From contig OZ024744.1 of NCBI GenBank assembly GCA_964016885.1, positions 136,435,334 through 136,499,333 of the forward strand: 64,000 nt of DNA, read 5' to 3'. Positions within the stretch are counted from its first letter, which is position 1, and every line of letters starts with the position of its first letter. Below the pieces are notes generated by a model. That model was given only the letters and a program-made list of their open reading frames with translations, searched no databases and had not been told where the DNA came from. This DNA comes from Eledone cirrhosa (taxonomy: Eukaryota). Positions 23,981 through 57,191 of this stretch are shown in pieces. A program made the position numbers and the translations under genes.

Positions 23981-25017
23981 CCAGATAGAAAAATGCGTAC
24001 AGCAAAAAAAAGTAATATCGTTGGAATATAAACCTTTAAAAATACAGGACAAGAAACTAAAATAAAACTTTAAAAGAATAGGACAAGAAACTAAGATAAA
24101 ACATTAAAGAATTGGACAAGAAATAAAAAATTTTACAATAATATTAGTGGCAAAATTTTTATTGGTAAAAAATCGAGTTCCACATTCAGAGGGCGTCGTC
24201 AGACCGGAGGGATCATTTGATCCTGGTTTGAACACCAATTGGGCCATAACCATACCCCTAGTTTATCAATCGGCGACACGCCTCATGTGTCATGCATAAT
24301 GTGAATGGACCCATGGGCCCATGAGCACAGATCTTGAGCAGCAGCGGACGGTCTTGTCGTCCCGCTCATCCTTGATCTTGACCAACCCGTCCATCTTCTC
24401 CTTGCATCTTGTCCTTGAGTTCAAGTCCGGCAGTCCAGATGAATGCGTGCCACAGCTTTCTGGTACAGGAAGGGGGAGCAGGAGGACTGGAGGGATGACG
24501 GGACAGAGGGAGGGAGGACCGGTGGTTGAGGGAGGTGCCGTAGTCGGTGGTCAGAGTCGACATCTTGTCCTGGTCGTCTTCTCCATCTTCGTCTGGTGTT
24601 GCGGGACCAGAAGTGCATTCTTGGAGGAGACCTGCAGCTGCATCGGCCAATTCTTCTTGCAATGGTCATTCTGACAGAGCAGAACTGCTCAACCAACCAA
24701 CCCCAACCAGAACCAACCGCTCAGGGGCAACGCACAATGAGAGCATGACAATTATTATGCACTAATCAAGAAGATACTGGGGCATAGCACAGGAAACGAA
24801 TAAAAAAATTTTGCCACTAATATTAATGTAAAATTTTTTATTTCTTGTCCAATTCTTTAAAGTTTTATCTTAGTTTCTTGTCCTATTCTTTTAAAGTTTT
24901 ATCTTAGTTTCTTGTCCTATTCTTTTAAAGTTTTATTTTAGTTTCTTGTCCTGTATTTTTAAAGGTTTATATTCCAACAATATTACTTTTTTTTGCTGTA
25001 CGCATCTTTCTATCTGG
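23981..25017. repeat. 3'-terminal foldback of Helitron A1: inverted arms ~23981-24163 and ~24798-25017 with ~33-bp subrepeats and a GC-rich spacer
   Basis: CCAGATAGAAAAATGCGTACAGC... is mirrored by ...GCTGTACGCATCTTTCTATCTGG. The right arm has one extra ~33-bp subunit. Confidence 0.93.
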
Positions 25018-25288
25018 TCTACTATTTTTTAAGGCAATGCAAGCAACAACTATCTAATAATTAAATGATCATAGTGAATTACTGACAAGTGATTGACATT
25101 TTAAAGTTCTTTTGAGTATAATTGCAATCTAGTTGAGGCAACTGGCTTAATGACAAAGCTAGTAAATCTTGAATGCATTTGAGATGATTAGTGCATAATA
25201 GTGAATTGGTGAAACTTGTGCATTTCAATTGTGTTACAATAGATGTAAGTTATATAGTAGTAATACTTTATCATTTTAACTTTTTAGA

Positions 25289-25648
25289 ATGGACAAAAAC
25301 CCATGCAAAGAAATGACTTTGACTGCAGTGATTCTCTCCAATTTACTTACAAAGCAAAACGTGGTCAAATACCTTATCATCTCTGATAAAATGCCCATTG
25401 AATCACTGAAAATCGGATGCATGGAATTCCTCATAAAATACACCTATGAATCGGAAGCCATCACATATATCAATGGATATAGGGAGTTGTTCACACTGGA
25501 AGACCATCACTTCATTTGTGACTTCATCAGTTATCTCCACGATTATCTCAGACACACAATGCCATTGATGAGAGGTGATCCAATGTGTGAGCATGTAACT
25601 AATCTTATAGAAGTTGTTATCGACCACCTGGCTTTTAGTGACATTTGA
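25289..25648 (+). CDS. 119-aa ORF/exon with BACK-like (BTB-associated) helical motif
   Basis: ILSNLLTKQNVVKYLIISDKMPIESLKIGCMEFL resembles the SPOP/BACK pattern L..NL..EN...L..AD....LK..C..FI. It is preceded by a pyrimidine tract and AG (25286-25287). Confidence 0.4.
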   Translation: MDKNPCKEMTLTAVILSNLLTKQNVVKYLIISDKMPIESLKIGCMEFLIKYTYESEAITYINGYRELFTLEDHHFICDFISYLHDYLRHTMPLMRGDPMCEHVTNLIEVVIDHLAFSDI

Positions 25649-25828
25649 CTGATTTGACTGATAATGATGTATTTTTAAAAAGTATGTGTACATTCTTGTT
25701 ACTATTTTAAGGCAATGCAAGCAACAACTATTTAATAAAATTTAAATTTAAAAATGACCATTGTGCATTACTAGTATGATGACATTTTATTAAGTCACAA
25801 AATTAGTCAGTCAGCCATAGAACAAGGA

Positions 25829-26540
25829 TCAGGTGGCAAAAACATTGGCAAAAATTTGTGTCAATTTAAGATTTCCAACATTGTTCAAATGTATATCTGG
25901 TTTGAAGTCAGATTTGTCAAATTTTGACCAATTTTCAATGTTGTGAAGATTGGGCAAGTTCAATTTTTGAATCATTTCTTTCATGCAGTAATTAAACTTT
26001 TCCAAACGAGAATTTCTCTTGCCCAAGTCATTTTTATTTTCAATTACACTTTGTGGACGTGGAATGACACCACTGTAGAAAATGGGTGTACAGTGGTGCT
26101 TTTCCGCTATTTTCTGTAGCCTTGCAAAGAGACTCTTCCCCTGTTTTTCCGGTTTTGTGCCTCGAATGGGCACTTTGTCCTTAATTTACAAATAAATGAT
26201 TAATAAAAAATACTTGGGCAAAAATTATTGTATTACTTTGCACAGCTTTGTAGTGCCAACGGTGAGACGAGGATACAGATCATTAGAGCCGACATGAACC
26301 ACCAATACTTTCACAAAAGGACAACAGATAACAATGTTGGCGATTAACATTACCTGGCTCTGACGGGCCCCAGGTATACAAAATATCTAAGTATTTTTGT
26401 TGGTATGATAAGTAAATACATTTGAATTAATATTTTTATACCTTCTGGTCATTCGATTTCGCCACATTTCTAATTATTGAATCACCCACAATATACTTGA
26501 ATTGTGGGTAATTTTTATTCAAAAGTGCACAGACGACCAT
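25829..26540 (-). CDS. SGNH/GDSL hydrolase (esterase), three exons 26540-26442, 26386-26237, 26179-25829, ~199 aa
   Basis: All four SGNH blocks occur in order after splicing two phase-0 GT-AG introns (26387-26441, 55 nt; 26180-26236, 57 nt): IVGDSIIR, IPGA, VVHVGSND, PDIHLNNVG. No internal stops. The start codon is uncertain. Confidence 0.85.
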
Positions 26541-26649
26541 TAAACAACGGCCATGGAGATTTGTACCATTCCCATTAAATCCTCGCCCCCAAATTGGATT
26601 AGGGGTGTCCTCGACCAATTGTTGCTACAAATATTCAAGAAATGAGCTA

Positions 26650-26824
26650 GATTCAAATGGGTTTTCCCTCAAAAAACATTTTTTTTTACCGTTTTTTACT
26701 GGTTTTTAATGGAAAAAAAACCGTTTGTAACTTTTTTTGGAAACTTTTTCAAGTCTGGTAAAAAACGTTTTTTTAACCGTTTTTTACTGGTTTTTTAATG
26801 GTAAAAAAACCGTTTGCAACCCTA
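26650..26824. mobile_element. Probable MITE/DNA-transposon remnant
   Basis: Internally duplicated A/T-run motifs (ACCGTTTTTTACTGGTTTTTAATGG) ending ...CCGTTTGCAACCCTAG, a TIR-like end. The partner TIR was not found. Confidence 0.3.
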
Positions 26825-26836
26825 GTCACATATACA

Positions 26837-27951
26837 CTAGCTAGAAAAATGCGTACAGCAAAAAAAAGTAATATTGTTGGAACAAACCTTTAAAAATACA
26901 GGACAAGGAAGTAAGATAAACCTTTAAAAATACAGGACAAAGAACTAAGATAAAACTTTAAAAGAATAGGACAAGGAATATAAATTTTTACAATAATATT
27001 AGTGGCAAAATTCAATTGGTAAAAAATTGAGTTTCCATCATTACACCAATTACAACTATGATGTTCCGCATGCATCCACTCCAACCATGATCACTTGTCT
27101 GTCATCTTTCCCGGTCCAACTCCTCGCGAATGACCCGGCGCAACTCGGACTGGGTCGGAGCAGGAACTGGAGGGGGAGAGGGAGGGGTACGGGTCTTGAC
27201 TCTGGGACGATGACGGCGAGTGACCAAGGTGAATGGGCCCGTGTTCGACTCGGAATCCTGCTGGTCCTCGATGACACTTTGAGGCACGGTTGACGGTTCC
27301 GGACTGGCTTCATGGGCAGTGGTAGAAGGGCAGGTGGATAGGGCAGAGTGCTTCTTCCTGGGAGAGCACTTGAAGCAGGTGAAGCCGGCGCCGGACTCGT
27401 TGAACCACTTCCAGACAGCACTGGGCATGTTGGCGCAGCAATGATGAAAGTTGAAGCAGGCGACGAGGGGGGAGGAGGTGGAGGCGTTGGTGCAGGAGCA
27501 ACAGACTGCTGATTTGGGAGTCATTGTAGCTGGGGGATGCAGGCGCTGAGGGGGCTCGAGTAGAAGGGAAGAACAGAAATGAACCATGATGACTTTTCCT
27601 ACATTTTTCCTGGCCCACTTCCTCATGAACCAATGAACCAGTTGGTACAACTCGGACTTGGAGGAGGAACACAAGACAGGGATCAATTTCATTGTATTGA
27701 TATTTCTCATTAAGTAATTTCATGTTACTCAAATAAATCACTTTTATTTGATCAATTATCTATTTTTCCAATAAAATTTTTGCCACTAATATTATTGTAA
27801 AAATTTATATTCCTTGTCCTATTCTTTTAAAGTTTTATCTTAGTTCTTTGTCCTGTATTTTTAAAGGTTTATCTTACTTCCTTGTCCTGTATTTTTAAAG
27901 GTTTGTTCCAACAATATTACTTTTTTTTGCTGTACGCATTTTTCTAGCTAG
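26837..27951. repeat. 3'-terminal foldback of A2: ~175-bp near-perfect inverted arms enclosing a ~760-bp spacer
   Basis: CTAGCTAGAAAAATGCGTACAGC... (26837-~27011) and ...GCTGTACGCATTTTTCTAGCTAG (~27776-27951). Confidence 0.95.
27060..27524 (-). pseudogene. PHD-finger fragment resembling the N-terminus of a CR1/Jockey-group LINE ORF1, inside the A2 foldback loop
   Basis: MTPKSAVCCSC...C..FHHCC...WKWF....FTCFKC, then a Pro-rich linker and IREELDRER followed (after a frameshift) by RQVIMVGV. Confidence 0.5.
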
Positions 27952-28424
27952 TTTCCTATTTTTCAAGGCAATGCAAACAACAACTACTTAATTAAATAGT
28001 TATTACTTTAGTTACTTCTATCAAAAAATCCCAAAAATGATGTTAATGAAAACTATAGGTGAAAGTGAAGCTATTCTTTTGTGACCTCTTAGTTACTTGT
28101 ACCAATTTTGAATTTAATTCAAGCTACAGTGTCAGCCTGTGCATTGGAGTCACAGAAATAAGTTGAGATATTTTATCTAATTGGTACAAGCATCCACTCC
28201 ACATGGCGGGGACATAGGTCAGATCGTGGAGCACTCACCTATCTTAAAAATATTAACTTATGATAAATAAGAGTCATTTAAGAAAATACAATTTTTTTAA
28301 ATTAGTAGGTGAGCATTAACAACTGAATCTAAATGGAGCAAATTTGCACCATTTGCATTTAGTTGAAAATAACATTTTAATTAAACATGACAAATTCTAA
28401 TGCAATAGAAGGCAAATATCAATT

Positions 28425-28760
28425 TTCACATGCAAATTTTTTTGGGATTTTTTTCACGCGCGCCATTTTTGGTCGATTTTTTGTCAATTTTTCACATGCA
28501 AATTTTTTTGGGTTTTTTTGATTTTTTTTTCACGCGCGCCACTTTTGTCGATTTTTTGTCAATTTTTCACATGATAATTTTTTTTTGGATTTTTGGATTT
28601 TCTTCACGCACGCCATTTTTGTCGATTTTTTTTGTCAATTTTTCACATGATAATTTTTTGGGGATTTTTGTATTTTCTTCACGCGCGCCATTTTTTGTCG
28701 ATTTTTCATATGCAAATTTTTTGATTTTCTTCTCACACGCCATTTTTGTCGATTTCATCA
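28425..28760. repeat. Degenerate ~60-70-bp T-rich tandem repeat (paralog at ~36975-37110)
   Basis: Recurrent TTTTCACATG...CACGCGCGCCATTTTT...GTCGATTTTT units. Confidence 0.75.
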
Positions 28761-29334
28761 TTTGAGTGTTCATAGTCCAAAAACAACTGTATTGCATTTT
28801 CGCGCCAGGCAAAAAAGTAATAAGCCGATCAAAAAGCCGCGAAACGTATATGGTGACTTTTTTCGAAAGCCGCGAAACGTATGAAGTGACCTTTTGCGAT
28901 TTTTTTTGCGACCATTTTGGCGAGACTTTTGCAGGGAAACAAATTTTTCATTTGTAATAGTCAAAATAAATAAGCCGATAAAAAAGCCGAGAGACGTCAT
29001 TTTCATATGTCAAATGAGCACACTATTCGCACCTATCGCAAATGAGTTCACTACTCGCACCTATCGGTACAAAAAATAGCACAACTATTCACAACTATTA
29101 GTACAAATCCAAATGATTTTCTGAATTTCTAGTATATCAATCAGCGACTGCTTTGAAAGAGAACAATGCAGTGAGTGATTACTCATTTGAATATAAATAG
29201 AAGACAACCTCAACTAGTTTGCAACGTGTGACCACTTATCGCGAGATAGGAGAACATAATAGCTCCTAATTAGCTCAATGATTAATGTTTACTGCCACAT
29301 TGTATCAACATTTAAAATTCAAATTCAAAAAAAT

Positions 29335-29903
29335 AACCGCAGTCACTGGGGGGGGGGGTTCAAATAACCATCGCACCCCGAATAACCGCAGTCACTAGGG
29401 GGGGTTCGAATAAGACCCTCACCCCAAATAACAGCAGTCACTGGGGGAGGGTTCGAATAAGCGCCTCACCCCGAATAATCGCAGTCACTGTGGGGGGGGG
29501 GGTTCGAATAAGCGCCGCACCCCGAATAACCGCAGTCACTGTGGGGGGGGGGGGGGGGGTTCGAATAAGCGCCTCACCCCGAATAATCGCAGTCACTGGG
29601 GGAGGGTTCGAATAAGCGCCGCACCCCGAATAACCGCAGTCACTGGGGGGAGGGTTCGAATAAGCGCCGCACCCCGAATAATCGCAGTCACTGGGGGGAG
29701 GGTTCGAATAAGCGCCGCACCCCGAATAACCGCAGTCACTGGGGGGAGGGTTCGAATAAGCGCCGCACCCCGAATAATCGCAGTCACTGGGGGGAGGGTT
29801 CGAATAAGCGGGGGGGGGGGGGGGGGGTTCGAATAAGCGTCTCACCCCGAATAATCGCAGTCACTGGGGGAGGGTTCGAATAAGCGCCGCACCCCGAATA
29901 ACC
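29335..29903. repeat. 47-48-bp G-rich minisatellite inside A2
   Basis: Unit GAATAAYCGCAGTCACTGGGGGGAGGGTTCGAATAAGCGCCGCACCCC, about 11 copies with variable G-runs. Confidence 0.92.
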
Positions 29904-30206
29904 CCTTATCCTCCTCTGACCGGTCCCAAGAGATGCATCAAATGCACAGAGCGTCACCCTTACTCACTCACTTACTCACTTGAACACAGTTTTTTTCAGC
30001 AAACTTTGATCATAACTTTTTTTTGTGCTGAACGAAATTTCGAGATTTTTAGCTTAAGAGATGTGCAATGATTTACTCTCCATGCTCATATAACTTTCAT
30101 GTGATTTTGATAATCGGAAGACATTCTAATAATGCTGTAAAGAGACGATTGCCAACAAAATCACTAAGACAACAATATTACTAAACCGACTACCGTCGGT
30201 TTAGGA

Positions 30207-31146
<940 letters not shown>

Positions 31147-31987
31147 ACAGAGCGTCACCCTTACTCACTCACTTACTCACTTGAACACAGTTTTTTTCAG
31201 CAAACTTTGATCATAACTTTTTTTGTGCTGAACGAAATTTCGAGATTTTTAGCTTAAGAGATGTGCAATGATTTACTCTCCATGCTCATATAACTTTCAT
31301 GTGATTTTGATAATCGGAAGACATTCTAATAATGCTGTAAAGAGACGATTGCCAACGAAATCACTAAGACAACAATATTACTAAACCGACTACCGTCGGT
31401 TTAGGATACAGTCCCCGTGTCACAAAGTTTTGATGCCAGTAGAGGATCATTTTCGAATTTCATTGAGAACAGTACCACCATGAGATCAAACTGGATTGAT
31501 TCCCATTTGAAATCTCTCTCTTTGCAAAAAGTTGACAATCTATCAAAAAATAGCATTGTAAACTTTAATCAAATATGTATGGGATATGTTTACTTAAATG
31601 GGTCTTTTTCTGCCAAAATGTGGCAGTTGGTCATTTCTTCCATAAAATAGGGTCTTGATGTACTTATAAGCATGTTCAACTGTGATGAATGAACATTCCA
31701 ATAAATTCAGTGGACTGTTTAATTTGCTCATATTGGACTAGACATGAAAAATGCGCAAGCTCAAAAGTGCCACAGAATGTTATAATAAACCTTCAAAAGT
31801 GTGGGACTAGAGTTGTTGCTAAAAAATATTGTAATCATTATATATCGTACATTCTGTGGCATCCTTTATAAAAATAGCTTAAACCAACGAAGCCTTTATT
31901 TTTACGCTATTTCACTTAGTTAATTCTTAGAGTGTAACATATAAAAATATGATTTACAACTATAAAATAAATTAATTAATATAATAA

Positions 31988-32075
31988 CAGAGCTGCGGAG
32001 CTGAAATTTAGGAAATAATGGAGTATCGGATCCTGAGTTGGAGCCAGTCAATTTTTGACCGACTCCGCAGCCCTG
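31988..32075. mobile_element. Tiny hAT-like MITE in the family B foldback loop (also at ~50144-50231 and ~58927-59014)
   Basis: TIR CAGAGCTGCGGAG.../...CTCCGCAGCCCTG, flanked by a near 8-bp duplication TATAATAA/TATAATAC. Confidence 0.6.
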
Positions 32076-33244
32076 TATAATACATTTCATATTAAAGTTA
32101 TTAATAAACCTATTTTACACTTCATGCAAATTACCACGAGATATTGATATTAGATATAAGATACAGCGCAATATCTACAGCTGTAAAAGTACGAAAGCGA
32201 AGTAATAATAAGTGGCTTAAGGTAATTCCAATATGAAAGTTTGTAGTGATAAAAATTTGATAATGCAATACGATTGTTAATATTATAGTTCTATGAAAAT
32301 GTAACAATAGATAACTAAATTATTTTACTATTAGTATATTTAAGAAATTATCATTATAGATTTGATCGTTCATATAAGCATCATATTAAGTTTCAACACA
32401 ATTATTTTGTTACTATGAGTATATGATAATAATATTACGTAATTATTTATAGCTGTTATTACATTAAACATAGATGTATTTATTTTTATATGTTACACTC
32501 TAAGAATTAACTAAGTGAAATAGCGTAAAAATAAAGGCTTCGTTGGTTTAAGCTATTTTTATAAAGGATGCCACAGAATGTACGATATATAATGATTACA
32601 ATATTTTTTAGCAACAACTCTAGTCCCACACTTTTGAAGGTTTATTATAACATTCTGTGGCACTTTTGAGCTTGCGCATTTTTCATGTCTAGTTTAATAT
32701 TTTTTTAAGGCAACGCTTGTAATAACTCTAGTTAAACAGGATATATATTAATAATAAATTATCGTTGTAATGTAATTAGATTATGTAATTGTTATTATAA
32801 ATTATCTTATAAATATTAGTGTAAGATGTATAAAAATATTTTCAGACTTTTAATATAAACAACTACAAAAAACAATCAATATTAAATCAATATATTATAC
32901 ATAATAGAAAACATAAAATATACAATACAAAAACAAAATATTTACATACAATTGCAATTATCAGTGTATATACATTTTCTTTATATTCCCTGAGCAAATT
33001 AATAAGATTTGTTTTTATTGTACATAATTTGATGACTTGTTGGAGTGTATTAAAAGATAGCAACAATTTGTGATTAAATTGTTATCTTAAGCAACTCACT
33101 TTTTAATAGTTGTTGGCTGAGCGAAATTGTAAAAGCCTATGAGCAAATATAAAAAAAAATACACAAACAACATTTCCTTGTGTTATTACAACATTAGATA
33201 AAATAATTGAGCAATGTCGTTATATTTTGCTCTTATTGCACATT

Positions 33245-33420
33245 AATAGTGTTTCTATTTTTCGGCACAAATCCATTACGGCAGTCCATTACTGGTACTT
33301 TATTTTATCGAATTAGTAAGTATGAAAGTCGAAGTTAACCTCGGCAGGATTTGAACTTAGAATGCAAAGGACCATAACAATACTGCAAAGCATGGTGTCT
33401 GACGCTCTACCAATACTTGT
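33245..33420 (-). mobile_element. Older degenerate SINE of the same family as 34141-34326
   Basis: Shared core ACTGGTACTTTATTTTATCG...AAAGTCGAAGTTAACCTCGGCAGGATTTGAAC. Confidence 0.7.
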
Positions 33421-33807
33421 GTTGAGCTGGTCATTAATTTATGGTGGTCGTGCGTGGAGTAGAGCAATCGCTAGTTGAAATATTATGAACAAAACATTTT
33501 TATTTGCCGAAGAACATATTTTCAATACTGTTTGTGAATGTGACGAAGGAAATACATTCTGATATGGAACAGTGTACAAAGTGTGTCTGTGAATAACATA
33601 ATGTTACCTCATGTTGTTGTCAAGACATAATGGATTTCGTTTATCCAGTTAGAAGATGAAACCTAGCCATCTCGGATTAGTTATATTTCATGCCATGTGT
33701 AAACGTGTTTGAGGATAGCAAAATATGCGCGTTAATTATAATAATTAGTTAATAATATTACAAAATATACCTAATTAAACTCTTTGCTTGAAATTTTATC
33801 ATTCTTC

Positions 33808-33916
<109 letters not shown>

Positions 33917-34140
33917 TCTAGTCCTTCGCTCAAGATTAATCTATAAGTTTAGATGTTTGCCTTCGTTTAAGTAAATATTACAGTAAGATTTTTAATATAA
34001 ACAACTGCAAAAAACAATTAATATTAAAACGAAAAAATTATCAATGATAAAAGAAGCGGATGCAACTTTTTTTTTTATAAAGTTATATTCCTGTTTCTTT
34101 AAAGAACATTTCATTTTTGTTCTATTGTAGGCGAAATAAT

Positions 34141-34326
34141 TGTTTCTACTTTAGGCACAAGGCCAGCAAATTACCCAGTACATTACTGGTACTTTATTTT
34201 ATCGACCCCGTAAGGATGAAAGGCAAAGTTAACCTCGGCGGGATTTGAACTCAGACTGTAAAGGGACGTAACTATGCTAGAAAGCATGGCGTCCAACCCT
34301 CTACCGATACTGCCAATTCACCGCCC
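34141..34326 (-). mobile_element. tRNA-derived SINE with 15-bp TSD
   Basis: TSD TGTAGGCGAAATAAT at 34126-34140 and 34327-34341. The empty site is seen in the other B copies (~55236-55250). 5' GGGCGGTGAATTGGCAG A-box-like head and GAGTTCAAATCCC B-box-like motif. Confidence 0.9.
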
Positions 34327-35552
34327 TGTAGGCGAAATAATGCAATGGTTTAATAGGGAAGATATAACTTACGAATTATGTCTCTAACCGTGTAACGCTT
34401 TTTAAGTAGATAACTACAATTGAAAATACTAAAGAAATGGAACCAACAATTCAATTTGAAAGTCGTCTAGTGACAGTGTATTACTGGTACTTTATTTTAT
34501 CGACCCCGTAACGATGAAAGGCAAAAATGCAAATGCTTAAAATTTAAATTGCCTTAATTCTATCGTCTGCTGTTTCATTAAAGGGAGATTATCGTCTGTA
34601 TTTAATTCTATCGTCTACTGTTCCACTAAACAGATATACCTCCACTATCGTCTCTATTTATACATTTTAACTTATAACTTATACACATTTGATTTGAAAT
34701 ATTTTATCTAGTCCCCCCTCTCAATATTATGATGATTTCTTTCGAATGAAACAGTTCTAGTCCTGTAGAAGCCATTTATATATATAATTGAACTGAGTTA
34801 AAAATTCACAATATTTATAATTAAATAAGCTCATATATATATGTGTGTATTTATCTGTTTATTGTATTATATATAATGTGTGTATATACAGGATGTCCCC
34901 CAAAAATATATACACACTTCAACAGCATTCTAATAACTATTGCCTGTACAGGTAATCAAAGTGTCAATCGAATGTTAGTTTCGTGTTTTAACAGTACAAA
35001 TTTACAATACACACATAAAACCAGTGTATATACATACATGAGTGTGTATACACATACATGAATGTGTATATACAATATATATGTATATATATATATAGAC
35101 ACATGTATTCACGGTGCAACGGTACATTAAAATATAGATGCGGGAGAGGGGGTGTATATATAGGGGCGCTGGGGATAAAGGAGTGTAAAGCGTGTGTAAT
35201 TGATATATTGAAGGAGAGGAGCGTGCAGCGATAGAGTAACAAATATATAGAGAGGGGGAGAGATGGTATTGAAGGGGAGGAGTGCAAAGCGAAAGAGTAA
35301 GAGATATAAATAGAGACGGAACAGATAGAGAGAAACAGGCGTAAGTAACAGTGGAAGAGATATAGAGAGAGGTACTCTGATTGGTTGAAAATTAGCCAAT
35401 CACATACGATCACCACCACGGCTATCCCCGAAAAATTTTTAAAGAAGCTAGGCATATATGTTAGAACACGAAAAGTGAACATTCTGTGTTTCACACTTTT
35501 CGTGTTCTAACAGATAAAAACTGATACTGCTGTCTACGACCTTTATATAGGA

Positions 35553-36429
35553 CTAGCAGTAAAGCCCGGCGTTGCTCGGGGTCGCTCAGTAGCTGTGTTA
35601 AAGTTACAATGTTAAGTTTCTTTCTTGGCTTAAAAACTGTAGTGTCTACTGTGCAGACTTGCATGTGGTGTTTTTGATTAATATTCCCTCAACCAACAAT
35701 ATGCCTTATGAAGTTAAGAAAACATAACGATAACCCGAATGTTATAACAAAAGAGGATGCTGGGGATAGAAACTGCACTGGTTATTTATTAACAAAGATC
35801 GAAAATGTAAACACTGCAACGCAGAGAAAAACATTAGCGTAACCAAATTATCAGTTATGTCTGTCTGCACGCCTATATCACCTCTCTGCACGACTGTCTG
35901 TCTGCACGCCTATATCACCTCTCTGCACGACTGTCTGTCTGCACGCGTATATCACCTCTCTGCACGACTGTCTGTCTGCACGACTGTCTGTCTGCACGCC
36001 TAACGACGAAATATTTGCTTGTTTTACGTAGTCTTTAAATAGACTTGTTTTCAAGTAAAAATATTGTTTTAAAATGCTTTTAAATGGAAATGAAGCAAAA
36101 CGGAAGCTTAGTGTTCGAACTGATGAATTTTGCAGGTCAATATTTTGCTGGCTCGACAACTGTTAAAGCCAGCGTAATTTTTTACGTAAGACGCTCAATG
36201 TAAACAGAACAAAGGGAAATAACTGATAACTTACGCTCAAAAATCGATACATTATATTCGATTTCGTCACATAGGGTGGGTCAATTTGAAATTTTTTTTT
36301 TCCGATGTCTTCGCTAGGGCTCAATGTACAAGTATAGCAATTTCGGTGCAATTCCGTGAGAGATTCTAAGAGGAGATGTGTGCCAAAAATCGATAGACAG
36401 ACAGACAACCACAGTTTTATATATATAGA
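35553..36429 (-). mobile_element. Canonical short non-autonomous Helitron (family C) with internal 37-bp minisatellite
   Basis: 5' A|TCTATATATAT. 3' short GC hairpin (CCCGAGCAACGCCGGG) about 10 nt before CTAG|T. Minisatellite at ~35858-36000. Confidence 0.9.
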
Positions 36430-36654
36430 TTGTCATGTTTCTCTGTATCTGCAATGTGGGTATACAAAATAAGAATTATGTTATTAACTTTTATTTAAAA
36501 TCCCCCAAAATGCTGTGAATGAAAACTTCAAAAAGTAATTCTATTTCTATTGATGACCTCTTAGTTGCTCATACTAATTTTGTAAAAGATTTCAAGCCAA
36601 TAATCAGAATGATCTGGTATAATTTTTATGCAGATAAATGACTAATTAGTATAA

Positions 36655-36720
36655 AGGGCCATCCAGATATCATGTGGACACCGCGAACCAAAAATGGTCA
36701 CATGATATCTGGATGGCTCC
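36655..36720. mobile_element. 66-bp palindromic micro-MITE, PIF/Harbinger-like
   Basis: 19-bp inverted repeat GCCATCCAGATATCATGTG/CACATGATATCTGGATGGC, TAA on both sides, absent from the paralogous A2 site (~28185). Confidence 0.6.
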
Positions 36721-37679
36721 TAAGCATCCCCTCCACATGGCGGGGACATGGGTCATCGTCGTGGAGTACTCACCTATTTTTTAAATATTAGACTATGATA
36801 AATGAATTTAGTTAAAAATACAATTTGAAATATATTAGATAATATTTAGTAGGTGAGCATTAACAACTGAATCTAAATGGTGCAATTACACCATTTGCAT
36901 TTAGTTGAAAATTACATTTTAATTAGACATGACAATAAATGTGACAAATTTTACACAATACAAAGCAAATGTCAATTTTCACATGCAAGTTTTTTTGAGG
37001 TTTTTTTGATTTTTTTCACACACAGCATTTTTGTCAATTTTCACATGCAAACTTTTTTAGGGATTTTTTTCACGCGCGCCATTTTTTTTTGATTTTTCAC
37101 ATGAATTTTTTCGGAGATTAATTACAAATTTTATGTGCATTTTTTACAATTTTTCGCATGTATATTATTTGTTTGCTTATGATGTGGCTTGCTTGTTGCT
37201 TGTTTTGTTTCACCTGATTTGACTGTTCATATTTATTTTAAAAATCCACCCCCCAAGTCCAAGTTGTGACCAAGAAATTTAATAGTGAAGAATTGCCAGT
37301 AAAGATGTGTAACTCCATTAGACATACATATAAATGTTTATAATATAAAATGTTACATTTTGGCAGACAACAGATACATTGGATAGACCTACTGCATACT
37401 TCGGCACTATCCTCTGACACTGTAGCTTGACAAATGTAACAAATTTCCTGTAGTACTACATATAAATGAAAAATTGCTCATGTTACAAAACAACAGTTAC
37501 ATTGGACAGACCTACTGCATACTTCGGCACTGTCCTCTGACACAGTTGCTTGACAAATGAAACAAATTTTTCATATAGTAGTACAGATTTTTATACTCTA
37601 TATTATTTTAATGTCTAATAGAGTTCACTTGGATGTGTAGGAAAGAGCATTCTGGAGTGATATTGGACCTATATTTTTT

Positions 37680-40600
37680 TTTAAAAAAGTAAAACAATAT
37701 TTGGCAATTTAGGTGGAAATTTTGGGTGCCTTTTGGTTATGCACGTGTCACTAATTTCATCCCATTTGTGAATTAAACAAGTTTGTGAATTAAACAAGTG
37801 TAATGACCTCCTGATGTGGAACCTAATGTGTGAACAATTGCTGATTGAAGTTGGAAATTGGTACCAAAAAACTGCTGGCGTTTTGAACTGAAATTCAATA
37901 AATCACAATGTATTTGAGTTTCTTGACCACTGGTTATGAGGAATCGGTTGATTGATACTACAAGGCAGTGCATTGTGGGTTGGAAATCTCTCCTGATGGT
38001 TGTTTTGTGCTCTGTATTGTCACATTGTTTTATTATGGTGTCATTTGATACAAGTAAAGTACGAAACTGTTGAGGGCCTTGAATAGGATGCAATGTCAAG
38101 TCTGTTTGAATTTCTGGTGTTTTGTGAGTTTCGAGTCCACATCCAGGTCTATGTGTGCAAGTACAAATTTGATCATTCAAACGTGGGCATTCATTTTCAT
38201 GACTTTTAGTGCATCTTAGTGTTTCATTCACTTGCAATTGGAATATTTGCTGTGCATTTGGTGGAAAATGTGGGTAGATATTTTTCCAAAAATCATGGGC
38301 ACATTTCTGAGCACCATCATTAAATCTCCCCCCAATTAATCTTCGCAGAATTGAAACATCCCGATCCCCTGGTGTGACAATATTTGTTATTTCCTGAACA
38401 ACTGGACTGAGTAATTGGGTAGACAACAAAGTTTCCCAAAGTTTGGGCAATTGGGCAATAGCTTGAAGTGTGGAATTGGCAAAACAGGCATTTTCCTTAT
38501 TTTGTAGTCTAATCATGGGAGTGAGCATGGAAATTGTAGCTAATTTAGGTTTTTTGGTAGGAGGAGCATATTCAGAAGGGTTGTCCACATTCAACATTCG
38601 CCTTGATCGTTTTTTTGGCATGCAAGATTCAGAAGCCATGCATGGTGGTTTATTTCTACATGGTCCAAGTGGAGGCAATTTTGTTGTAGAACGCAATTTG
38701 TTGTACTCTTCCCAAGCAGATTTGTCACACATGATCAGGGTTCGAGGGTCAAAATCTATCAAATAGACATTGCAGAGTTTCCTAGCTCGTGAAAGTGCAA
38801 CATAGGCCATTCCATCTGCGAACACCAGAGGACCAAGATCAGCAATGACCCCATCAACACTTATTCCCTGTGATTTATGGATGGTGATGGCATCGGCAAG
38901 GCTTAGGGGGAACTGTTTTTATGTCACATACACACCAGGAGAGATTTCATAGTCTGCAGTCACCTTTTCTATTGAAATGTCATTGCCTATCATGTGATCA
39001 AATTCCACAATGATTTGTCCCATTTTCCCATCTTTTCCATTGACCATGCTTTGCACTGTTCCCATGACACCATTACATAGCCCCTTCACCAAATTAATGT
39101 TTCGTCTCAGCATTACTCTGGCCCCAACTCCAACTTGCAATTCAGTCTCAAGTCCAGCAGTGTCTGATGCCTTTTTTGGTTTGGAAAATTTGTTTGACTT
39201 TGACTTTTTTTTACGACCTTTCTGGCGCATTCCTGAGTCCTCAGCAATAACTACAACTGTACTGATGTTGGCATGCTTAAGCATTTCCTTGTTGAATTCA
39301 TCTACAGATTCATTGACAGGCAAAATACAGACAAATTTTTGACTAGGTAATGTGCAAAGTTGCATTAGTTTCTCAGTTGCCTCTCTCATTGTTGCCCTGC
39401 GATCTGGGAATAGGCAATGTTCACTCAAAGTATTGATGTCCATGTCTGTAGGTGATCCTATTCTTATTCGACCCAACATTTCAGAATAGTTTTCACTGTC
39501 ATTTTTTTGCCGCATGTTTATAGTGAGCTCATCATAGTCGAAAAATTTCCACAGTGACTGCCCACTTATTCCCAGACCAGTCCTTTTAGCATCATATGCA
39601 GAAATACTGGAAAAGACTGTTTTTTCATTTACTGGTGGAAGTTGAAGTAGATCGCCAAAAACCAGAATATTTATTTTTCCAAAAGGGCTGGTCATTTGAC
39701 TCTGGTCCCCCAAAATCTCATCTAGACGCCTATGGATAAATGCAAACATCAGATGACTGACCATACTTATTTCATCGATAATTATCAGACGGACACCCTC
39801 TAGAGTGGATCGCAAAATTTTGAGTTCATCACTTTCTAATTCCCTATATGATGGTGACTTTCCATGTTGGACTGGGAGTTTCAAGAGCCTGTGCAAAGTG
39901 GTCCCCTTGATTTGGAAAGCAGCCATACCAGTTGGTGCACAAATGACTACTGGGGCCCCATTTCTCTTGCAACAAATTTGAGTAACTTTGTCAGAAATTA
40001 TATCAATGAGAAAACTTTTTCCTGTACCTCCTACACCAGAGACAAATTTGAGAAATTGTGGGCAATCATCACATCTGCACCTTGGTAGTGGTTTTTCCGA
40101 ATTCCAATGCAATTCCTGTTTTTCAATTGCTGATACAATTAGATTGTATATGGATATTTGATCTGTATTAAGCTGTGTTTCTTTTGTCTGTAGAGCAGTT
40201 TCATCTACATCTCGAATTTGGGGAACATCAATACCAGCCTCATCTCTTGCCTCCTTCTCCCCCCCTTCTCTCCGTCCTTCTCCGACCTCTCCCTCCTTTT
40301 CACCCTCCTTCTCCAACCTCTTCCCCATCTCAACTGCATCAGTGATTTTTTCTTCACATTTTGAAAATTCACCATATCTGGCAAATTGTTTGCACACAGA
40401 TGAAAGGACTCTTCAAATGTTTTGCAGCCACCCAACAAATCTTTGTCCTCATCGCGCCAGGGTTTGAACAGCATTAGAAGATTGTGGTAATAACGTTCTT
40501 TTGTGTCATTTTTGAGCTGTATATTTGGTGCTTTAACTACCCGCTCTTTTACACTATGAAAATACCCCTTGTCATTGAGCAATTTCATTTTTGTAGCCAC

Positions 40601-42090
40601 ATCTTTGTCAACAGGTTTTTTTTGTGTCCTCTCATATTTGCTGCCAACTTCATATAAGGAAGAATCTTCCAGGAATTTTGGCCGGTTTTTGTAAAAAGTT
40701 TCCACCATGTTCTCATAGAACAAGTCCATTGAGTCTTCACTCAGTTCATCGAGATCATTTTGAGATTTCAATCTGCGGCCGCGCCTACTGGGAATGTCTG
40801 CACCTACCCAAATAACATGATCTGATGACCCGTAAAAATGATGCCCCAAAAGTTTGTCAGCAGCTTCATACCCTCCTGTATCCCTTTTCCCAAGCACTTT
40901 TGTATTTCCCATATTTTGTTTTGGAATGATCCAGATTCGCCCACACTCCCTCAGCCTCATTTTTTTCAGCCTTAGTCTGATAGCAGGTGACATATCTATT
41001 CAAAATCATACTATTCTCACCAATGTATTGCACATCTATATTTGCTTGCCAGGCTAGAAGTAAACATGGATTGTAGTCATTTATGTACTTTTCTGATTCT
41101 TTTCTTTCCAATTGGTACAGGTTTTTTGTCCCATTACCATTTTTTCGTGATTTGATACTTTCAGAAACTGAGAAAAATCGAAATGGCCCCACTGCACGTG
41201 CAAAACCAAAACGGCATTTTTTACGCAAATTTTTCCTCTCCCCACTATTATCCAGCATGCTTTGCCACAAGTATGGACTAGGAACCGTCTAACGAGATTT
41301 GCCAAGTTTGGGCTGGCCACAGGGGATGGTAGCCAGCAAGTAATGCAGCGTTCAATAAATTGCTTGATTTTTTCTTTAGGATCTTTGTCAAAAATTACAC
41401 TGTCCCGAACCCAGGCTTTAAGGTGAATGTGAGGGGCACCACGTTGTTGATACTCGAGTCGCCAAAAGTAATGAATAATTTCCCCAAATGGGCCTTTTTT
41501 ATTTAAAATTACATCATGAAAAACAGCACTAAAACGATGGTGAAAGTACTCACTGACAGCCACAACATCATTTGCACAGAGATTCCCTATCGGCCTTGTT
41601 TCAACATTTGCAATGTCTTTATTGAGTTTTTCCAAAAATTCCCTCAAGCCTGGCCAAAAGTATTCAGCACATGAAAGAGTGATAAACAAATGGGCAGGAC
41701 TGAATTTCTCATCTATGGCATTCAAGTCGGAGCACTTGCGTTCCCAAAATGGCTTTGTTCCACGAACATTCGCCATCATCATTGACAAACCACTTTCCAA
41801 TTGTTCATCATTGGCTTCCAATCTTTTATAAAATTGAGCAAGTGTCAATTTTGGACTTTTGAGTGATTTTATTACGGCATAAATGCCAGAATCTGGTGCT
41901 CTTTTGTCAGCCTTGTCTAAATTGTAGAGAATGTACTGAATGTCTCTACGAAACCGGGGGGTCCTCATGTCTGAGTCTGTTTCTGATGAACATGTATGGC
42001 TTTACTCTACCATGGGGTCTGTTCATGTGCATCATTCCAAATTTTCCTTTAGGGAATAAGTGGGGCAAGCACATCAGATCCAGATTTGAC
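37680..42090 (-). pseudogene. Helitron RepHel transposase (HUH Rep + Pif1 helicase) fused to a C-terminal USP/C19 deubiquitinase domain; N-truncated and frameshifted
   Basis: Rep motifs FITLSCAEY, RLEYQQRGAPHIH and the Y...Y motif (RYVTCYQTK). Helicase motifs SGVGGTGKS, IIIDEISMV, FGDLLQLPPV, TIHKSQG, AYVALSRA. In the same frame follow LQNKENACFANSTLQ, QKCAHDF and IVH..GSTSGGHY. About four frameshifts plus a stop at 38919-38921. Confidence 0.93.
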
Positions 42091-42476
42091 TAATGTAATC
42101 ACAATCACAAGAGTTCCGCCGAAAAAAATTTGTCATTTCTGGATGGCCCTGTAGAGAGAGAGAGACTCGTAATTATCTCCCCTTGTTATCTCGGGCCGAT
42201 TCTCATCTCATAGATGCATCAAATGCACACAGCGTCACGCTTACTACTCACTCACTTGAACACAGGATTTATCAGCAAACTTTGATTATAAACTTTTTCC
42301 CGCTGGACCAAATTTTTAGATTTTTAAGCCAAAAGATGCATAATGATCTATAATGCTCATATAAGTTTTATCTCAGTTAAATAAAGTAGAGCCGCGCTGT
42401 ACTGTCGTAAACAGACGATTGCCAACGAAAACACGACCACAACAATATTACTAAACGGACTACCTTCCGTTTAGGA

Positions 42477-43039
42477 TATATACTAGTGTATTTTCACAGT
42501 AAAGGCTTTACCTCACATAATATCTCACATAACATTTACATTACTCTATATATACTATTGTATTTTCACAGTAAAGGCTTTACCTCACATAATATCTCAC
42601 ATAACATTTACATTACTCTATATATACTATTGTATTTTCATGGTAAAGGGTTTACCTCACATAATATCTCACATAACATTTACATTACTCTATATATACT
42701 ATTGTATTTTCACAGTAAAGGCTTTACCTCACATAATATCTCACATAACATTTACATTACTCTATATATACTATTGTATTTTCACAGTAAAGGCTTTACC
42801 TCACATAATATCTCACATAACATTTACATTACTCTATATATACTATTGTATTTTCATGGTAAAGGGTTTACCTCACATAATATCTCACATAACATTTACA
42901 TTACTCTATATATACTATTGTATTTTCACAGTAAAGGCTTTACCTCACATAATATCTCGCATAACATTTACATTACTCTATATATACTATTGTATTTTCA
43001 CAGTAAAGGCTTTACCTCACATAATATCTCACATAACAT
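42477..43039. repeat. 72-bp tandem repeat, ~8 copies (resumes at 48594-48660 after the LINE)
   Basis: Unit TATTTTCACAGTAAAGGCTTTACCTCACATAATATCTCACATAACATTTACATTACTCTATATATACTATTG. Confidence 0.95.
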
Positions 43040-43571
43040 CTCGTATACGAGAGACGTGTGTGAACAAGCTCGGCTACCGAGTTGGATTTACTTACTCAAA
43101 AGTGAGTTTTGATTAATTTTTTTATACTGTAATATACGTTAACCCCTTGCCTTGGTCGTCAAACTTTGAGTTTATTTATTTTCGCCCCTTTTTGGGGCGA
43201 ATTTTCCTTTTAAAAATTTATTATGGCAAACTGATAGAAATGGACGGAATTTTCACATCTCATCTTAACGAGAAAGCCACGCCCCCTAAGAAAGGTGATA
43301 CAGAGAAGCTAGAAGCACAATGCTCTAAGTCTTCCCTCCTCACTTCTGCAAATTAAAAGAAACATTTGTAAAAATGGGTGAAAACCCAGAAAGTCACATA
43401 AACGCAGACAAAAACAACAATGACAATAACAGCAATAGTCACAACACCAACCAAGGAAAAAATAACGATAACACCAAACAAAGCGAACCCACTACTGGTG
43501 CCTCCTTTGCACAGGCGGTCCGGAAAACATAGACCTGCAAGCAACTGGTCATTACAACTCTGAGAGAAAAG

Positions 43572-44400
43572 ATGAAGGAAGCAAAACAGTATGTAACTTT
43601 CAAAGAAGGAGGAGACTTCACAATCACCTCCCCACAAGAAATCAAAAGAGACGCGACACTAAGAACGATATCTTTCAGAACAATTTCCAACATAACAAGG
43701 AAACCAACTCAATTATCCCAAAAAGAGATTGAGCTGGTCCTAAAAAATGTGTGGAGTGATATATCGTTCATACAAAAAGGGCCACTCTATGGGAATATAA
43801 CGGTGCTAATGAAAGATCAATTGACGGCCAGGAAATACTCTGTGGCGCCAATTGTTTCCAAGCTGCACACATTTTTCCCCACATATTTGGGGAAAAGAAC
43901 GCAGAAAATAAGAGTCTCCGGAATCCGGCCAAATGCATGCATTTCCTGGGTACTAACAGGATTTTTAGAAGATGAGGACGGAATCCTCAGTAGGAGAAGT
44001 CACCACAGACGTTTTCGGCGGTTTGAGCGTGGAGGTTCTGGTCCAAATGAGACCAGAACGAATAGCTAGAATACCACAGAGGGCGTCCCTCGATGGAGAA
44101 ACATTTATATACATTTCAGCCGAGGGTAGGAGGCCCATATGTTACTACTGTTCAAGCAGGGGTCATCTAAGGGCTGCCTGTCCTCAATTGACAAAAAAAA
44201 AAGGCTCTTTTGCCTACACACCGCCACCACCACCACCACCACCACCACCACCACCACAACAACAACAACAAAAACAACACGGAAAAATAACACAAGACAC
44301 GGCCCCACCCAAAACAACTCCAAAAACACACAAACACAACAAAACCCCAAAATACACCACTCCCCGACAGCACGGACGAGGACCCAGCTGAAACGGCACC
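43572..44400 (+). pseudogene. LINE ORF1 (gag-like, zinc knuckle), frameshifted
   Basis: RRPICYYCSSRGHLRAACP CCHC motif, split over ORFs 43572-44069 and 43972-44391. Confidence 0.75.
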
Positions 44401-44963
44401 TAGTGACGAAGATGGGGGACCCTTCCAACCTGTAAAAAGGAAAAAAAGAAAGCACCACTCGAACATAAACGAAACAAACACACAACCACCAACAAAAACA
44501 AAACAAACAGAACAAACAAAATCCGCCCCACCCCAAAACATAACACATACAACAAAACGCAAGCACACATAAGAACAACAAACAAATACAACACAAATAA
44601 AACAGTATACATACATTAACACAAATAACAAAGAACTAGTAAAAACAATACACAAAGACCCTTCGGTGGAAACTGAAGGGCAATTCTTTGCAAGCGCGGC
44701 CAACAAACCGCATTTAAAAATGATAAGACTCCCAATGGACACCTATGCAAAACTAAGAGAACTTTCCTGAGGACGTGGGGAAAACATGTACTCGACCCTA
44801 TAACCGCGTCCTCTTGAAACGTTTCCCCACCCACACCTCACCAAACACCCCCACCCCACCACAGAACAACACCCCACCAAACAAGCCCTCCAATACGCCC
44901 ACGGATATTGTGCAACCTGCTCCTCAGGAGCCGAACAGGTAGGTCCTTCCTCTTTTAACCAAC

Positions 44964-47900: not shown

Positions 47901-48356
47901 CAGGCATGGGGGCCTGGGTAGGGATCCTTTGAATAAGATCTGTCCGAGATGCGTGCATGACGACGAAACCGTTGCGCACGCATTCGTACACTGCCCAGTC
48001 ATTGCCGATCTGTGGGGCTATGTGGAACGACTACTGTCGAGGGTGGGACCAATCCGGTTGACCACCGAGTCCATTGTCACGATCAAACCGCCTCCCCCTT
48101 TCAAAAACGAAGGAGAGGCGGTTTTTCTCTGTGTGATAGCCATGGCTAAGAAGTTGTATGGTGGACGAGGCTGAAAGGGCTGAGGTCAGACACCTTTCTC
48201 TCCGGCCAACAACTGGTCCCCTTTTTCAAATACCATTTTAAAAGAAGGATCAGAATGGAGAGAGAGGTGCTCTACCCCAGCAAGTTTTATGAAAGGTGGG
48301 TGAAAGTAGGGAGAATGGCCAGAGTGAATGGGTCTTCTCTCTATATCAGCCTGTAG
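44964..48356 (+). pseudogene. LINE ORF2: AP endonuclease, reverse transcriptase, zf-RVT; disrupted
   Basis: CLNIRGL, LVGDWN, SYLDR, SDHKLV; KSPGLDG, FRPITLLN, DQSKAFD, RQGCPLS, AYADD; CPRC...ETVAHAFVHC. Several stops and frameshifts. Confidence 0.93.
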
Positions 48357-48797
48357 GTGAAAGAAGAGGAAAAAGAGGAGACGAGGGAAGCACCTACTCT
48401 TTGTGCTCCTGAGGAGAAGGGTTGCACATTTTTTCCGGGGTGTGTGCGACCCATGTTAATGCCCCCTCCCTATTGAGGACTTCGTTTGTTGTTGTTATTT
48501 CATTGTTATATTTTTGTACTCGTTAATTATATGTAAACTTCCCCCCTTGTATCTGTCCCTACCTTTTGTGCCCTAGTGGCAAATAAAGAAACCACTCTAT
48601 ATATACTATTGTATTTTCACTGTAAAGGCTTTACCTCACACAATATCTCACATAATATCGAATCTATGAGTATTTATTTTGAGAACAATACTATAACATC
48701 AGTATGAGCGACCAGTTACAGCCAGTTTCGCCAGAAAGAGGTAGAGAATTCTGGCCGGTTTGAACATTAAAGGGTTAATGTTTTCTTTCGTTGACAG

Positions 48798-53726: not shown

Positions 53727-53803
53727 AGCTACACTATATATTTAAACATATATACAGTGATACCTCGCTACTTGGCGGTTCATACGCTATATATATATAT
53801 ATA

Positions 53804-54638: not shown

Positions 54639-54642
<4 letters not shown>
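53804..54642 (+). mobile_element. 5'-truncated RTE-clade LINE (ORF C-terminus, 3' UTR, (GAT)n tail) inserted in a TA run
   Basis: GWKKFRELLPLL...KGRLYDACIRTAMLHGSETW...RRLRWYGHVMR...GRPKMTW, ending in GATGATGAT. Confidence 0.9.
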
Positions 54643-54683
<41 letters not shown>

Positions 54684-54936
54684 TAAGTAATTAATACCGT
54701 ATAAATGGTACAAAGACTGTTTATGTAAAATGTATTTCTCAACAGAGCATTGAATACTTAGGAGAAATTCAAAACGAAGAGTGATAAAATTTTCAAGCAA
54801 AGAGTTTAATTAGGTAATGACTTACAAATTTGTTTCAGTATATAGACAAAGCCTGAAGCGTTAATTATAATAATTAGTTAATAATATTACAAAATATACC
54901 TAATTAAACTCTTTGCTTGAAATTTTATCATTCTTC

Positions 54937-55025
<89 letters not shown>

Positions 55026-57156: not shown

Positions 57157-57191
<35 letters not shown>

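What the first reader, a model, noticed from the sequence alone, without database searches (positions are those of the whole stretch)
37680..38825. RepHel transposase fused to a USP (C19) deubiquitinase domain
Seen: in the same frame as the Pif1 helicase C-terminus (one premature stop upstream) are the USP Cys box LQNKENACFANSTLQ, a QxDAxEF-like QKCAHDF, and the His box VH..GSTSGGHY. Removing a 17-bp tandem duplication (37765-37798) restores W-D-E-I-S-D, the expected Asp box, ending NIVLLF*. Established: Helentron RepHels can carry OTU-type proteases and a C-terminal AP endonuclease. A C19 USP at the C-terminus is not an arrangement I know. Inference: the transposon carries a deubiquitinase that could stabilise its transposase or counter ubiquitin-based silencing.
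Basis: partly seen in the sequence, partly recalled or inferred. Interest (0 to 1): 0.85.

Follow-up and report, generated by a model that had tools for sequence, protein, structure and literature searches.

The report
Transposase tipped with swappable ubiquitin eraser
This is a broken copy of a rolling-circle jumping gene whose transposase ends in a domain predicted to remove ubiquitin; intact young relatives sit in the same genome, and related elements fill the same end slot with other ubiquitin- or SUMO-type cutters, which suggests the transposase likely needs protection from the cell's protein-disposal tags.

Summary
Observation confirmed. The window holds a dead copy (family A1, 42476 to 23981, minus strand) of an HLE2-type rolling-circle transposon whose RepHel runs in frame into a USP/C19 domain (Pfam UCH above cut-off; sister-family model pLDDT 92.7 matches USP21/USP2). 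A sister family B has 7 complete 2230-2245-aa DUF6570-Rep-Pif1-USP ORFs; 5 compared differ by 1-10 nt of 6672. The USP is under purifying selection (dN/dS 0.44). A search on the RepHel alone gave 26 clade relatives; all 23 with a long tail carry a ubiquitin-family protease there (USP 10, OTU 12, Ulp1 1), with OTU likely replacing USP twice. All four families examined have Helitron1-like ends (A|TC...CTRG|T) plus a 5' hairpin and short subterminal repeats, like proto-Helentrons. Prior art: HELIANO (2024) lists UCH in HLE2 but says it is a separate ORF; Helitron OTU/VTD deubiquitinases are known. This scan noted the fusion earlier in another genome (e1-9904788). New in my searches: the in-frame fusion, the swappable slot and the termini. 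Likely role, untested: removing ubiquitin from the transposase or its DNA-linked intermediate.

The parts
23981..42476 (-). Whole A1 rolling-circle element (about 12.6 kb in the one fetched A1 copy measured end to end; here internally deleted and split by three nested insertions)
   Evidence: blastn against sister copies and junction sequences
42440..42476 (-). 5' end: TC after an A, 10-bp-stem hairpin with GGTA loop (one mismatch in this copy), then the 13-bp subterminal repeat
42084..42088 (-). Junction of a deletion of about 3.4 kb that removed the N-terminal coding region including DUF6570
40971..41998 (-). Rep (HUH) domain in pieces: motif 2 YFWRLEYQQRGAPHIH (41452-41423 for the last ten residues), Tyr motif YVTCYQTK 40994-40971; frameshifted
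38700..40050 (-). Pif1-family helicase, with a premature stop at 38921-38919
   Evidence: Pfam PIF1 E=1.5e-26, UvrD_C_2
38520..38700 (-). About 60-residue basic linker with NLS-like runs (PKKRSRR, PTKKPK; the NLS reading is from recall, not tested)
   Evidence: fastest-evolving part
37684..38519 (-). USP/C19 domain: catalytic Cys 38486-38484, His 37805-37803, Asp 37749-37747; 12-nt deletion near 38019; net +5 frameshift at 37765-37799
35553..36421 (-). Nested non-autonomous Helitron1-type element (TC ... hairpin ... CTAG, at A|T) in the 3' tail; boundaries read by eye, the scripted empty-site test returned no match for it
31738..35514 (-). Nested deletion derivative of sister family B, inserted between A and T with no target duplication (empty site in 2 uninterrupted A1 copies)
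26837..31408 (-). Nested deletion derivative of sister family A2; the scripted empty-site test returned no match for it
23981..25029 (-). 3' end: about 200-bp inverted repeat whose outer arm is flush with the terminus (inner arm about 1 kb upstream), subterminal repeat about 30 nt from the end, CTGG then T

Best explanation
The window holds a dead copy of a rolling-circle transposon family whose single RepHel transposase ends, in frame, in a USP-fold domain with its catalytic Cys, His and Asp in place, and this domain likely works as a tethered deubiquitinase that would strip ubiquitin from the transposase or the nicked-DNA complex it builds. Shown here: the fusion, intact young copies, the fold, purifying selection, and a C-terminal slot that holds USP, OTU or Ulp1 across the clade. 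[quoted passage not shown] Inferred: the RepHel-DNA intermediate looks like such a crosslink to the cell, and a protease on the same polypeptide removes the degradation tag and so lengthens the life of the active complex.
For: Fusion: 7 of 9 long-ORF family-B loci fetched encode a complete 2230/2245-aa DUF6570-Rep-PIF1-UCH protein, the other 2 end inside the USP; 5 compared ORFs differ by 1-10 nt of 6672 on 5 contigs with different flanks. Catalytic boxes in the best 30 of 109 genome matches: His box 30 of 30, Cys box 29 of 30 by pattern (the miss, L027, keeps NACF), Asp box 29 of 30. Selection: family-level A1 vs A2 USP dN/dS 0.44 (bootstrap 0.26-0.77, 279 codons) while copy-level changes are neutral (1.23); one B1/B2 pair 0.35. 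Fold: AF2 pLDDT 92.7, pTM 0.90; Foldseek best hit USP21, E=6.9e-18, TMq 0.79. Complex of family-B USP with this genome's ubiquitin: score 0.69, best of 3 controls 0.00; mark reached by 51 of 78 solved and 2 of 108 mismatched pairs (eukaryotes 39 of 65 and 2 of 126); runs agree in at least 96% of contacts, partner pLDDT at least 87; like complexes are solved, so this shows likeness only. Slot: of 29 RepHel-only hits, 26 are in the clade; 23 have a tail over 200 aa and all 23 carry a USP (10, one degenerate), OTU (12, one truncated) or Ulp1 (1) there, none both USP and OTU. OTU rows held together are rejected, p-AU 0.016 under LG+G4. Literature: covalent intermediate (PMC5876387); crosslink ubiquitylation (PMC11300803 abstract); Helitron VTDs are active deubiquitinases with the same proposed role (PMC9741609).
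Against: No activity or expression data. The USP evolves about three times faster than the helicase C-terminus (0.44 vs 0.14). The usual QQD motif reads QQC in all families of this genome (12 of 68 alignment rows have C, 55 have D), so specificity may have shifted. One slot holder is a Ulp1 (SUMO-type) domain, so ubiquitin may not be the only target. Rolling-circle transposases without any such domain exist (e.g. P0191 shows none; Helraiser is described with only DNA-binding, Rep and helicase domains), so the domain is not a general requirement. Nothing here distinguishes the transposase from another nearby substrate. The AU test used the simpler model, and the OTU group was tested after a first tree was seen.
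Confidence: 0.5

Rival explanations
1. The USP is an active protease but acts on host proteins at the donor or target site (chromatin or repair factors such as ubiquitylated histones or PCNA), easing access, gap filling or escape from silencing, not on the transposase itself.
For: Same fold, selection and slot evidence. Bao et al. proposed that OTU and Ulp1 domains of transposases act on DNA-repair signalling (PMC2836005). Interchange with Ulp1 fits general signal erasure.
Against: Three unrelated folds with different likely preferences fill the slot, which fits a tethered low-specificity eraser better than one defined host target (inference). No host target is indicated by any search.
Confidence: 0.3
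2. The domain has changed substrate or role: it cleaves another ubiquitin-like tag or processes the RepHel polyprotein, like viral papain-like proteases.
For: QQD to QQC change and a Cys/His-rich insert in the fingers specific to this genome's families; distant fold likeness to coronavirus papain-like proteases (TMq about 0.45).
Against: No conserved di-glycine cleavage-like motif across 35 RepHel proteins; the complex model places ubiquitin in the canonical site with its tail at the catalytic Cys (likeness only).
Confidence: 0.12
3. The USP is a captured passenger that no longer matters to transposition.
For: Weaker constraint than the helicase; Helitrons capture gene pieces often (PMC11417382).
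Against: dN/dS below 1 between families; catalytic residues kept across families 42-46% identical and in nematode, beetle and whitefly relatives; 23 of 23 long-tailed clade members hold a protease in the slot.
Confidence: 0.08

Closest known systems
UCH-bearing HLE2 elements, subgroups c and d (HELIANO, PMC11417382; passages, sections 23-24 and supplement text search; figures not seen)
   Same: HLE2-type RepHel with DUF6570, associated with Pfam UCH (PF00443).
   Different: The paper places UCH among 17 domains encoded in ORFs separate from RepHel, in subgroups mostly from axolotl and lungfish; here it is an in-frame C-terminal domain. Whether its Figure 7 shows UCH downstream could not be seen. 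The paper describes OTU as upstream of RepHel; here 12 relatives carry it after the helicase.
Helentrons with OTU and VTD deubiquitinase domains (PMC9741609, passages; PMC4067079, passages)
   Same: Rolling-circle transposase ORF carrying a deubiquitinase; VTD domains shown active; same proposed role of preventing proteasomal degradation.
   Different: Those have an AP endonuclease at the C-terminus, RGSPH in Rep motif 2, and the protease domains N-terminal (P0189, P0190), and insert at TT. Here the protease is a USP in the C-terminal slot, the motif is RGAPH and the target is A|T.
proto-Helentron (Phytophthora) and HLE2-reverse (FoHeli3-5) (PMC4067079, PMC11417382 section 24, PMC5148889; passages)
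   Same: HLE2-type protein without endonuclease; 3' CTAG and A|T target (proto-Helentron); 5' stem-loop before a short left repeat.
   Different: 5' TC, not TT; hairpin starts at nt 3; extra inverted repeat of about 140-220 bp flush with the 3' end; animal host, whereas HELIANO found no proto-Helentron-like element in 404 genomes. Kinship not tested.
Ginger1 and Mutator transposases with C-terminal OTU or Ulp1; a Trichomonas transposase with peptidase C19 (PMC2836005, passages)
   Same: Either/or use of OTU or Ulp1 at a transposase C-terminus; a C19 domain fused to a transposase.
   Different: Cut-and-paste DDE transposases, unrelated to HUH/Pif1 RepHel.
Cellular USP catalytic domains (USP21, USP2, USP12/46) and compact giant-virus USPs
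   Same: Thumb-palm-fingers fold (TMq up to 0.79; 0.74-0.76 to giant-virus USPs), catalytic Cys/His/Asp, zinc-finger cysteines.
   Different: Only 15-20% identity; QQC for QQD; no donor lineage identified.

Membership tests
USP / peptidase C19 | Profile match above curated cut-off | tested here: met
   Window 36-37 bits, sisters 41-48 bits, cut-off 23.9
USP / peptidase C19 | Cys box with oxyanion Asn, His box, Asp/Asn box | tested here: met
   N6, C11, H240, D256 in family B; conserved in 57, 64, 65, 64 of 68 rows; Asp box out of frame in the window copy
USP / peptidase C19 | USP fold | tested here: met
   Family-B domain. The 68-row alignment used includes ordinary USP-like hits, so the model leans towards that fold
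USP / peptidase C19 | QQD-A-x-E/D motif (typical, recalled; not strictly defining) | tested here: not met
   QQCAH[DE]F in all 30 loci (window QKCAHDF); other fused relatives mostly keep QQD
USP / peptidase C19 | Ubiquitin hydrolase activity | not testable with these tools
   Only a predicted complex
HLE2 group (Helentron/Helitron2 clade) | DUF6570 before Rep | tested here: met
   E=2e-17 and 9e-18 in families B and A2; deleted in the window copy
HLE2 group (Helentron/Helitron2 clade) | F/Y-w-R just before Rep motif 2 | tested here: met
   YFWRLEYQ / FFWRLEYQ
HLE2 group (Helentron/Helitron2 clade) | Short subterminal inverted repeats | tested here: met
   13 bp in A1 and A2, 10 bp in B, about 10 bp read by eye in C, at matching positions
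HLE2 group (Helentron/Helitron2 clade) | Placement in a tree with HLE1 and reference HLE2 transposases | tested here: inconclusive
   Trees hold no HLE1 or named reference rows
Helentron (strict sense) | C-terminal AP endonuclease | tested here: not met
   None in the full ORF
Helentron (strict sense) | Ser in RG-S-PH; TT target | tested here: not met
   RGAPH; A|T target
Helitron1 (HLE1) | 5' TC, 3' CTRR, A|T target, no duplication | tested here: met
   9 full copies listed (one lacks the last G), 4 family-C 3' ends and 6 5' ends (one reads TA); one empty site
Helitron1 (HLE1) | Hairpin 10-12 nt from the 3' end; RG-L-PH | tested here: not met
   Last 70 nt fold at only -2.7 to -4.9 kcal/mol; RGAPH
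proto-Helentron | HLE2 protein without endonuclease, 3' CTAG, A|T target, 5' stem-loop | tested here: met
   (A1 ends CTGG)
proto-Helentron | 5' TT | tested here: not met
   5' TC
proto-Helentron | Kinship with the Phytophthora element | not tested
   Sequence not in hand
HELIANO HLE2 subgroups c/d | Placement within those subgroups | not testable with these tools

The most novel reading that the evidence does not exclude
A broad animal clade of rolling-circle transposons (RGAPH Rep motif, proto-Helentron-like ends) keeps a dedicated C-terminal slot for an eraser of ubiquitin-family tags, ancestrally USP and repeatedly swapped for OTU or Ulp1, because its covalent transposase-DNA intermediate is attacked by host protein-crosslink repair; the slot is a transposon counter-defence against that pathway, and the young intact family B lets this be tested directly.
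Probability: 0.3. Interest if true: 0.78.

Novelty: new variant of a known kind. Interest (0 to 1): 0.52.

Why it matters
The role of the protease domains carried by Helitron-like elements is an open question (PMC8788227 says captured domains have no determined function; PMC9741609 offers a hypothesis). Three unrelated protease folds taking turns in one slot argues that the activity is selected for. A natural family with complete, nearly identical ORFs allows a direct test without reconstruction. The termini also extend a structure known from oomycetes and fungi to animals and may cause these elements to be mis-annotated, since they pair an HLE2 protein with HLE1-like ends.

Tried and rejected
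Word-index protein searches on the USP alone found nothing (986 candidates; 5741 candidates); the full HMMER search and the RepHel-based search did. The single-sequence PDB sequence search gave only weak USP hits (E 0.04-0.6) and a spurious designed repeat protein. The first AF2 model from 6 sequences was unusable (pLDDT 42). Sequencing runs: no RNA holder listed; contigs of two runs of unknown kind from one study cover the family-B helicase-USP stretch, possibly the source data, so not counted as support. A single origin of the fused USP is not shown: on a FastTree of 103 domains the fused label needs 11 changes (5 forced), 18 of 19 fused rows fall in a weakly supported part with unfused short ORFs, and P0105 lies apart on a long branch; a slower tree did not finish. 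Helicase and USP identities co-vary only modestly (Spearman 0.41, 8 of 5000 permutations, 15 rows; 0.34, 146 of 5000, 12 rows without this genome's paralogues). A giant-virus donor was considered but not adopted: 12-20% identity, no better than cellular USPs. Self-cleavage sites: none conserved. The dN/dS script stopped at the saturated A-vs-B comparison; the remaining pairs were not rerun. The VIA-align search was not obtained. Literature searches for a described in-frame RepHel-USP fusion or slot swap found none, but the library lacks most subscription papers and I had no access to Repbase Reports, the Thomas and Pritham 2015 review, HELIANO's figures or the preprint's supplements.

Full report
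Observation. On the minus strand the Pif1 helicase frame continues past one stop (38921-38919) through the helicase C-terminus and a 60-residue linker into a domain with NACFANS, QKCAHDF and GGHYTC; WDEISD and NIVLLF follow in another frame. Pfam UCH scores 36-37 bits against a cut-off of 23.9. The 17-bp repeat is real, but against sister copies it is a net +5 change standing in place of 12 nt. The copy also has a 12-nt deletion in the USP fingers, four Rep-region indels shared against two sister copies, and lacks about 3.4 kb of its N-terminal coding region. It is dead.

The element. The copy runs from 42476 to 23981. Its 3' tail is split by a small Helitron1-type element, a derivative of sister family B and a derivative of sister family A2. 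The family-B derivative sits between A and T with no duplication, shown by 2 uninterrupted A1 copies; the same scripted test gave no match for the other two inserts.

Other copies. The USP finds 109 matches in the genome, a lower bound. The best 30 fall into families A1 (89-98% identity to the window), A2 (85%), B and B2 (45-46%) and C (44-45%). Of 9 long-ORF family-B loci fetched, 7 encode a complete 2230- or 2245-residue protein, DUF6570-Rep-PIF1-UCH in one frame; 5 ORFs compared differ by 1-10 nt of 6672 and have different flanks, so the family moved very recently. One A2 copy is whole but for one stop. All 6 family-C copies fetched keep only the 5' end, the second half of the helicase and the USP. 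Contigs from two runs cover the family-B helicase-USP stretch, but may be the source data. The closest named relative of the USP is from Octopus bimaculoides, 71% identical to family B, so the host is probably an octopus.

Is the USP real and kept? In the 30 loci the His box is present in 30, the Cys box in 29 by pattern (the miss keeps the Cys) and the Asp box in 29. Between families A1 and A2, dN/dS is 0.44 (0.26-0.77) in the USP and 0.14 (0.07-0.24) in the helicase C-terminus, while changes private to dead copies are neutral (1.23). With a 68-row alignment, which includes ordinary USP-like hits, AF2 gives pLDDT 92.7, and Foldseek returns USP21, USP12, USP46 and USP2 (best E=6.9e-18, TMq 0.79). 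A complex with this genome's ubiquitin scored 0.69 against a best control of 0.00 (mark reached by 51 of 78 solved and 2 of 108 mismatched pairs; at least 96% contact agreement; partner pLDDT at least 87), with the ubiquitin tail at the catalytic Cys; like complexes are solved, so this shows likeness, not binding. Two oddities: QQD reads QQC, and a Cys/His-rich insert lies in the fingers.

How widespread? A USP profile found 1405 representatives; 14 of the best 150 carry helicase sequence before the USP in one protein, including complete DUF6570-Rep-PIF1 proteins from unnamed records and Caenorhabditis auriculariae, and PIF1-UCH from the weevil Anthonomus. The more telling search used the RepHel only: 29 hits, of which 26 belong to the clade with RGAPH or a close variant in Rep motif 2 (25 placed by the tree, SH 99; the short P0184 by motif alone). 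Three stop at or just after the helicase. All 23 with a tail over 200 residues hold a ubiquitin-family protease there: USP in 10 (one degenerate, with a second USP near the N-terminus; three whitefly proteins have two in tandem), OTU in 12 (one truncated), Ulp1 in 1; none has both USP and OTU. The two endonuclease-bearing Helentrons among the other 3 hits have the endonuclease in that slot and OTU or VTD towards the N-terminus. Rooted on those two, a 20-row tree has USP in the deepest branches and OTU in two separate places; holding the 6 OTU rows together is rejected at p-AU 0.016, under the simpler model and after a first tree was seen. The simplest reading is an ancestral USP replaced twice by OTU and once by Ulp1. 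The weevil protein has RGSPH and lies outside the clade, so a second USP capture or an older origin is possible; the USP tree cannot decide.

Termini. Families A1, A2, B and C begin A|TC with a hairpin from nt 3, followed or overlapped by a 10-13-bp repeat whose inverted copy lies about 30-35 nt from the 3' end; they end CTAG or CTGG before T, have no strong 3' hairpin (tested in A1, A2, B), and carry a roughly 140-220-bp inverted repeat flush with the 3' end. With DUF6570 and the F/Y-w-R signature this is an HLE2-type protein with HLE1-like ends, as in proto-Helentrons, which HELIANO did not find in 404 genomes.

Mechanism. HUH Rep domains form a covalent 5'-phosphotyrosine link to DNA (PMC5876387, passages). 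[quoted passage not shown] I infer that a protease on the same polypeptide removes such tags from the transposase or its complex (0.5). Rivals: host chromatin or repair targets (0.3), changed substrate or self-processing (0.12; no conserved di-glycine site), passenger (0.08).

Prior art. HELIANO lists UCH among domains of HLE2 subgroups c and d but says it is encoded in a separate ORF, and describes OTU as upstream (PMC11417382: passages, sections 23-24, supplement text search; preprint passages; figures not seen). Helitron VTD domains are active deubiquitinases, proposed to protect transposition proteins (PMC9741609, passages). Either/or OTU and Ulp1 tails are known from Ginger1, and a C19 domain from a Trichomonas transposase (PMC2836005, passages). 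PMC5148889, PMC4067079 and PMC8788227 were read as passages. Eight searches found no description of the in-frame C-terminal USP or of the slot swap in this clade; the library is incomplete. This scan noted the same fusion in another genome (e1-9904788).

Verdict. Real and well supported as architecture; a new variant of a known kind; function inferred. Interest 0.52.

Noticed in passing
   Followed up: partly
L077-L088 (family C): All 6 copies fetched are deletion derivatives (about 4.2 kb where both ends were found) that keep the 5' end, the second half of the helicase and the USP; they amplified as such.
   Followed up: partly
window 27102-27719 (-), inside the A2 derivative: A 205-codon frame with a Cys/His pattern like a PHD finger (recalled; no Pfam match) lies between the arms of the A2 3' inverted repeat.
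   Followed up: partly
family B 3' tail, about 10.0 kb from the 5' end: An 85-codon frame that looks like the C-terminal part of a LINE reverse transcriptase (recalled; not scanned).
   Followed up: no
window 48999-59277: Further family-B deletion derivatives, nested in each other, lie in the window, one keeping about 2.6 kb of the N-terminal ORF.
   Followed up: no
window 1-23979 and 60640-64000: [quoted passage not shown]
   Followed up: no
window 43040-48590 (+): A decayed LINE-like element (ORF1 pieces, endonuclease and reverse-transcriptase-like sequence, read by eye) upstream of the 5' end, next to a 72-bp tandem array at 42476-43039.
   Followed up: no
P0163 (MCP4491608.1): The best RepHel relative, with a C-terminal USP, is labelled as a Gammaproteobacteria metagenome-assembled genome on a 7.2-kb contig; likely a eukaryotic contig binned with bacteria (inference).
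   Followed up: no
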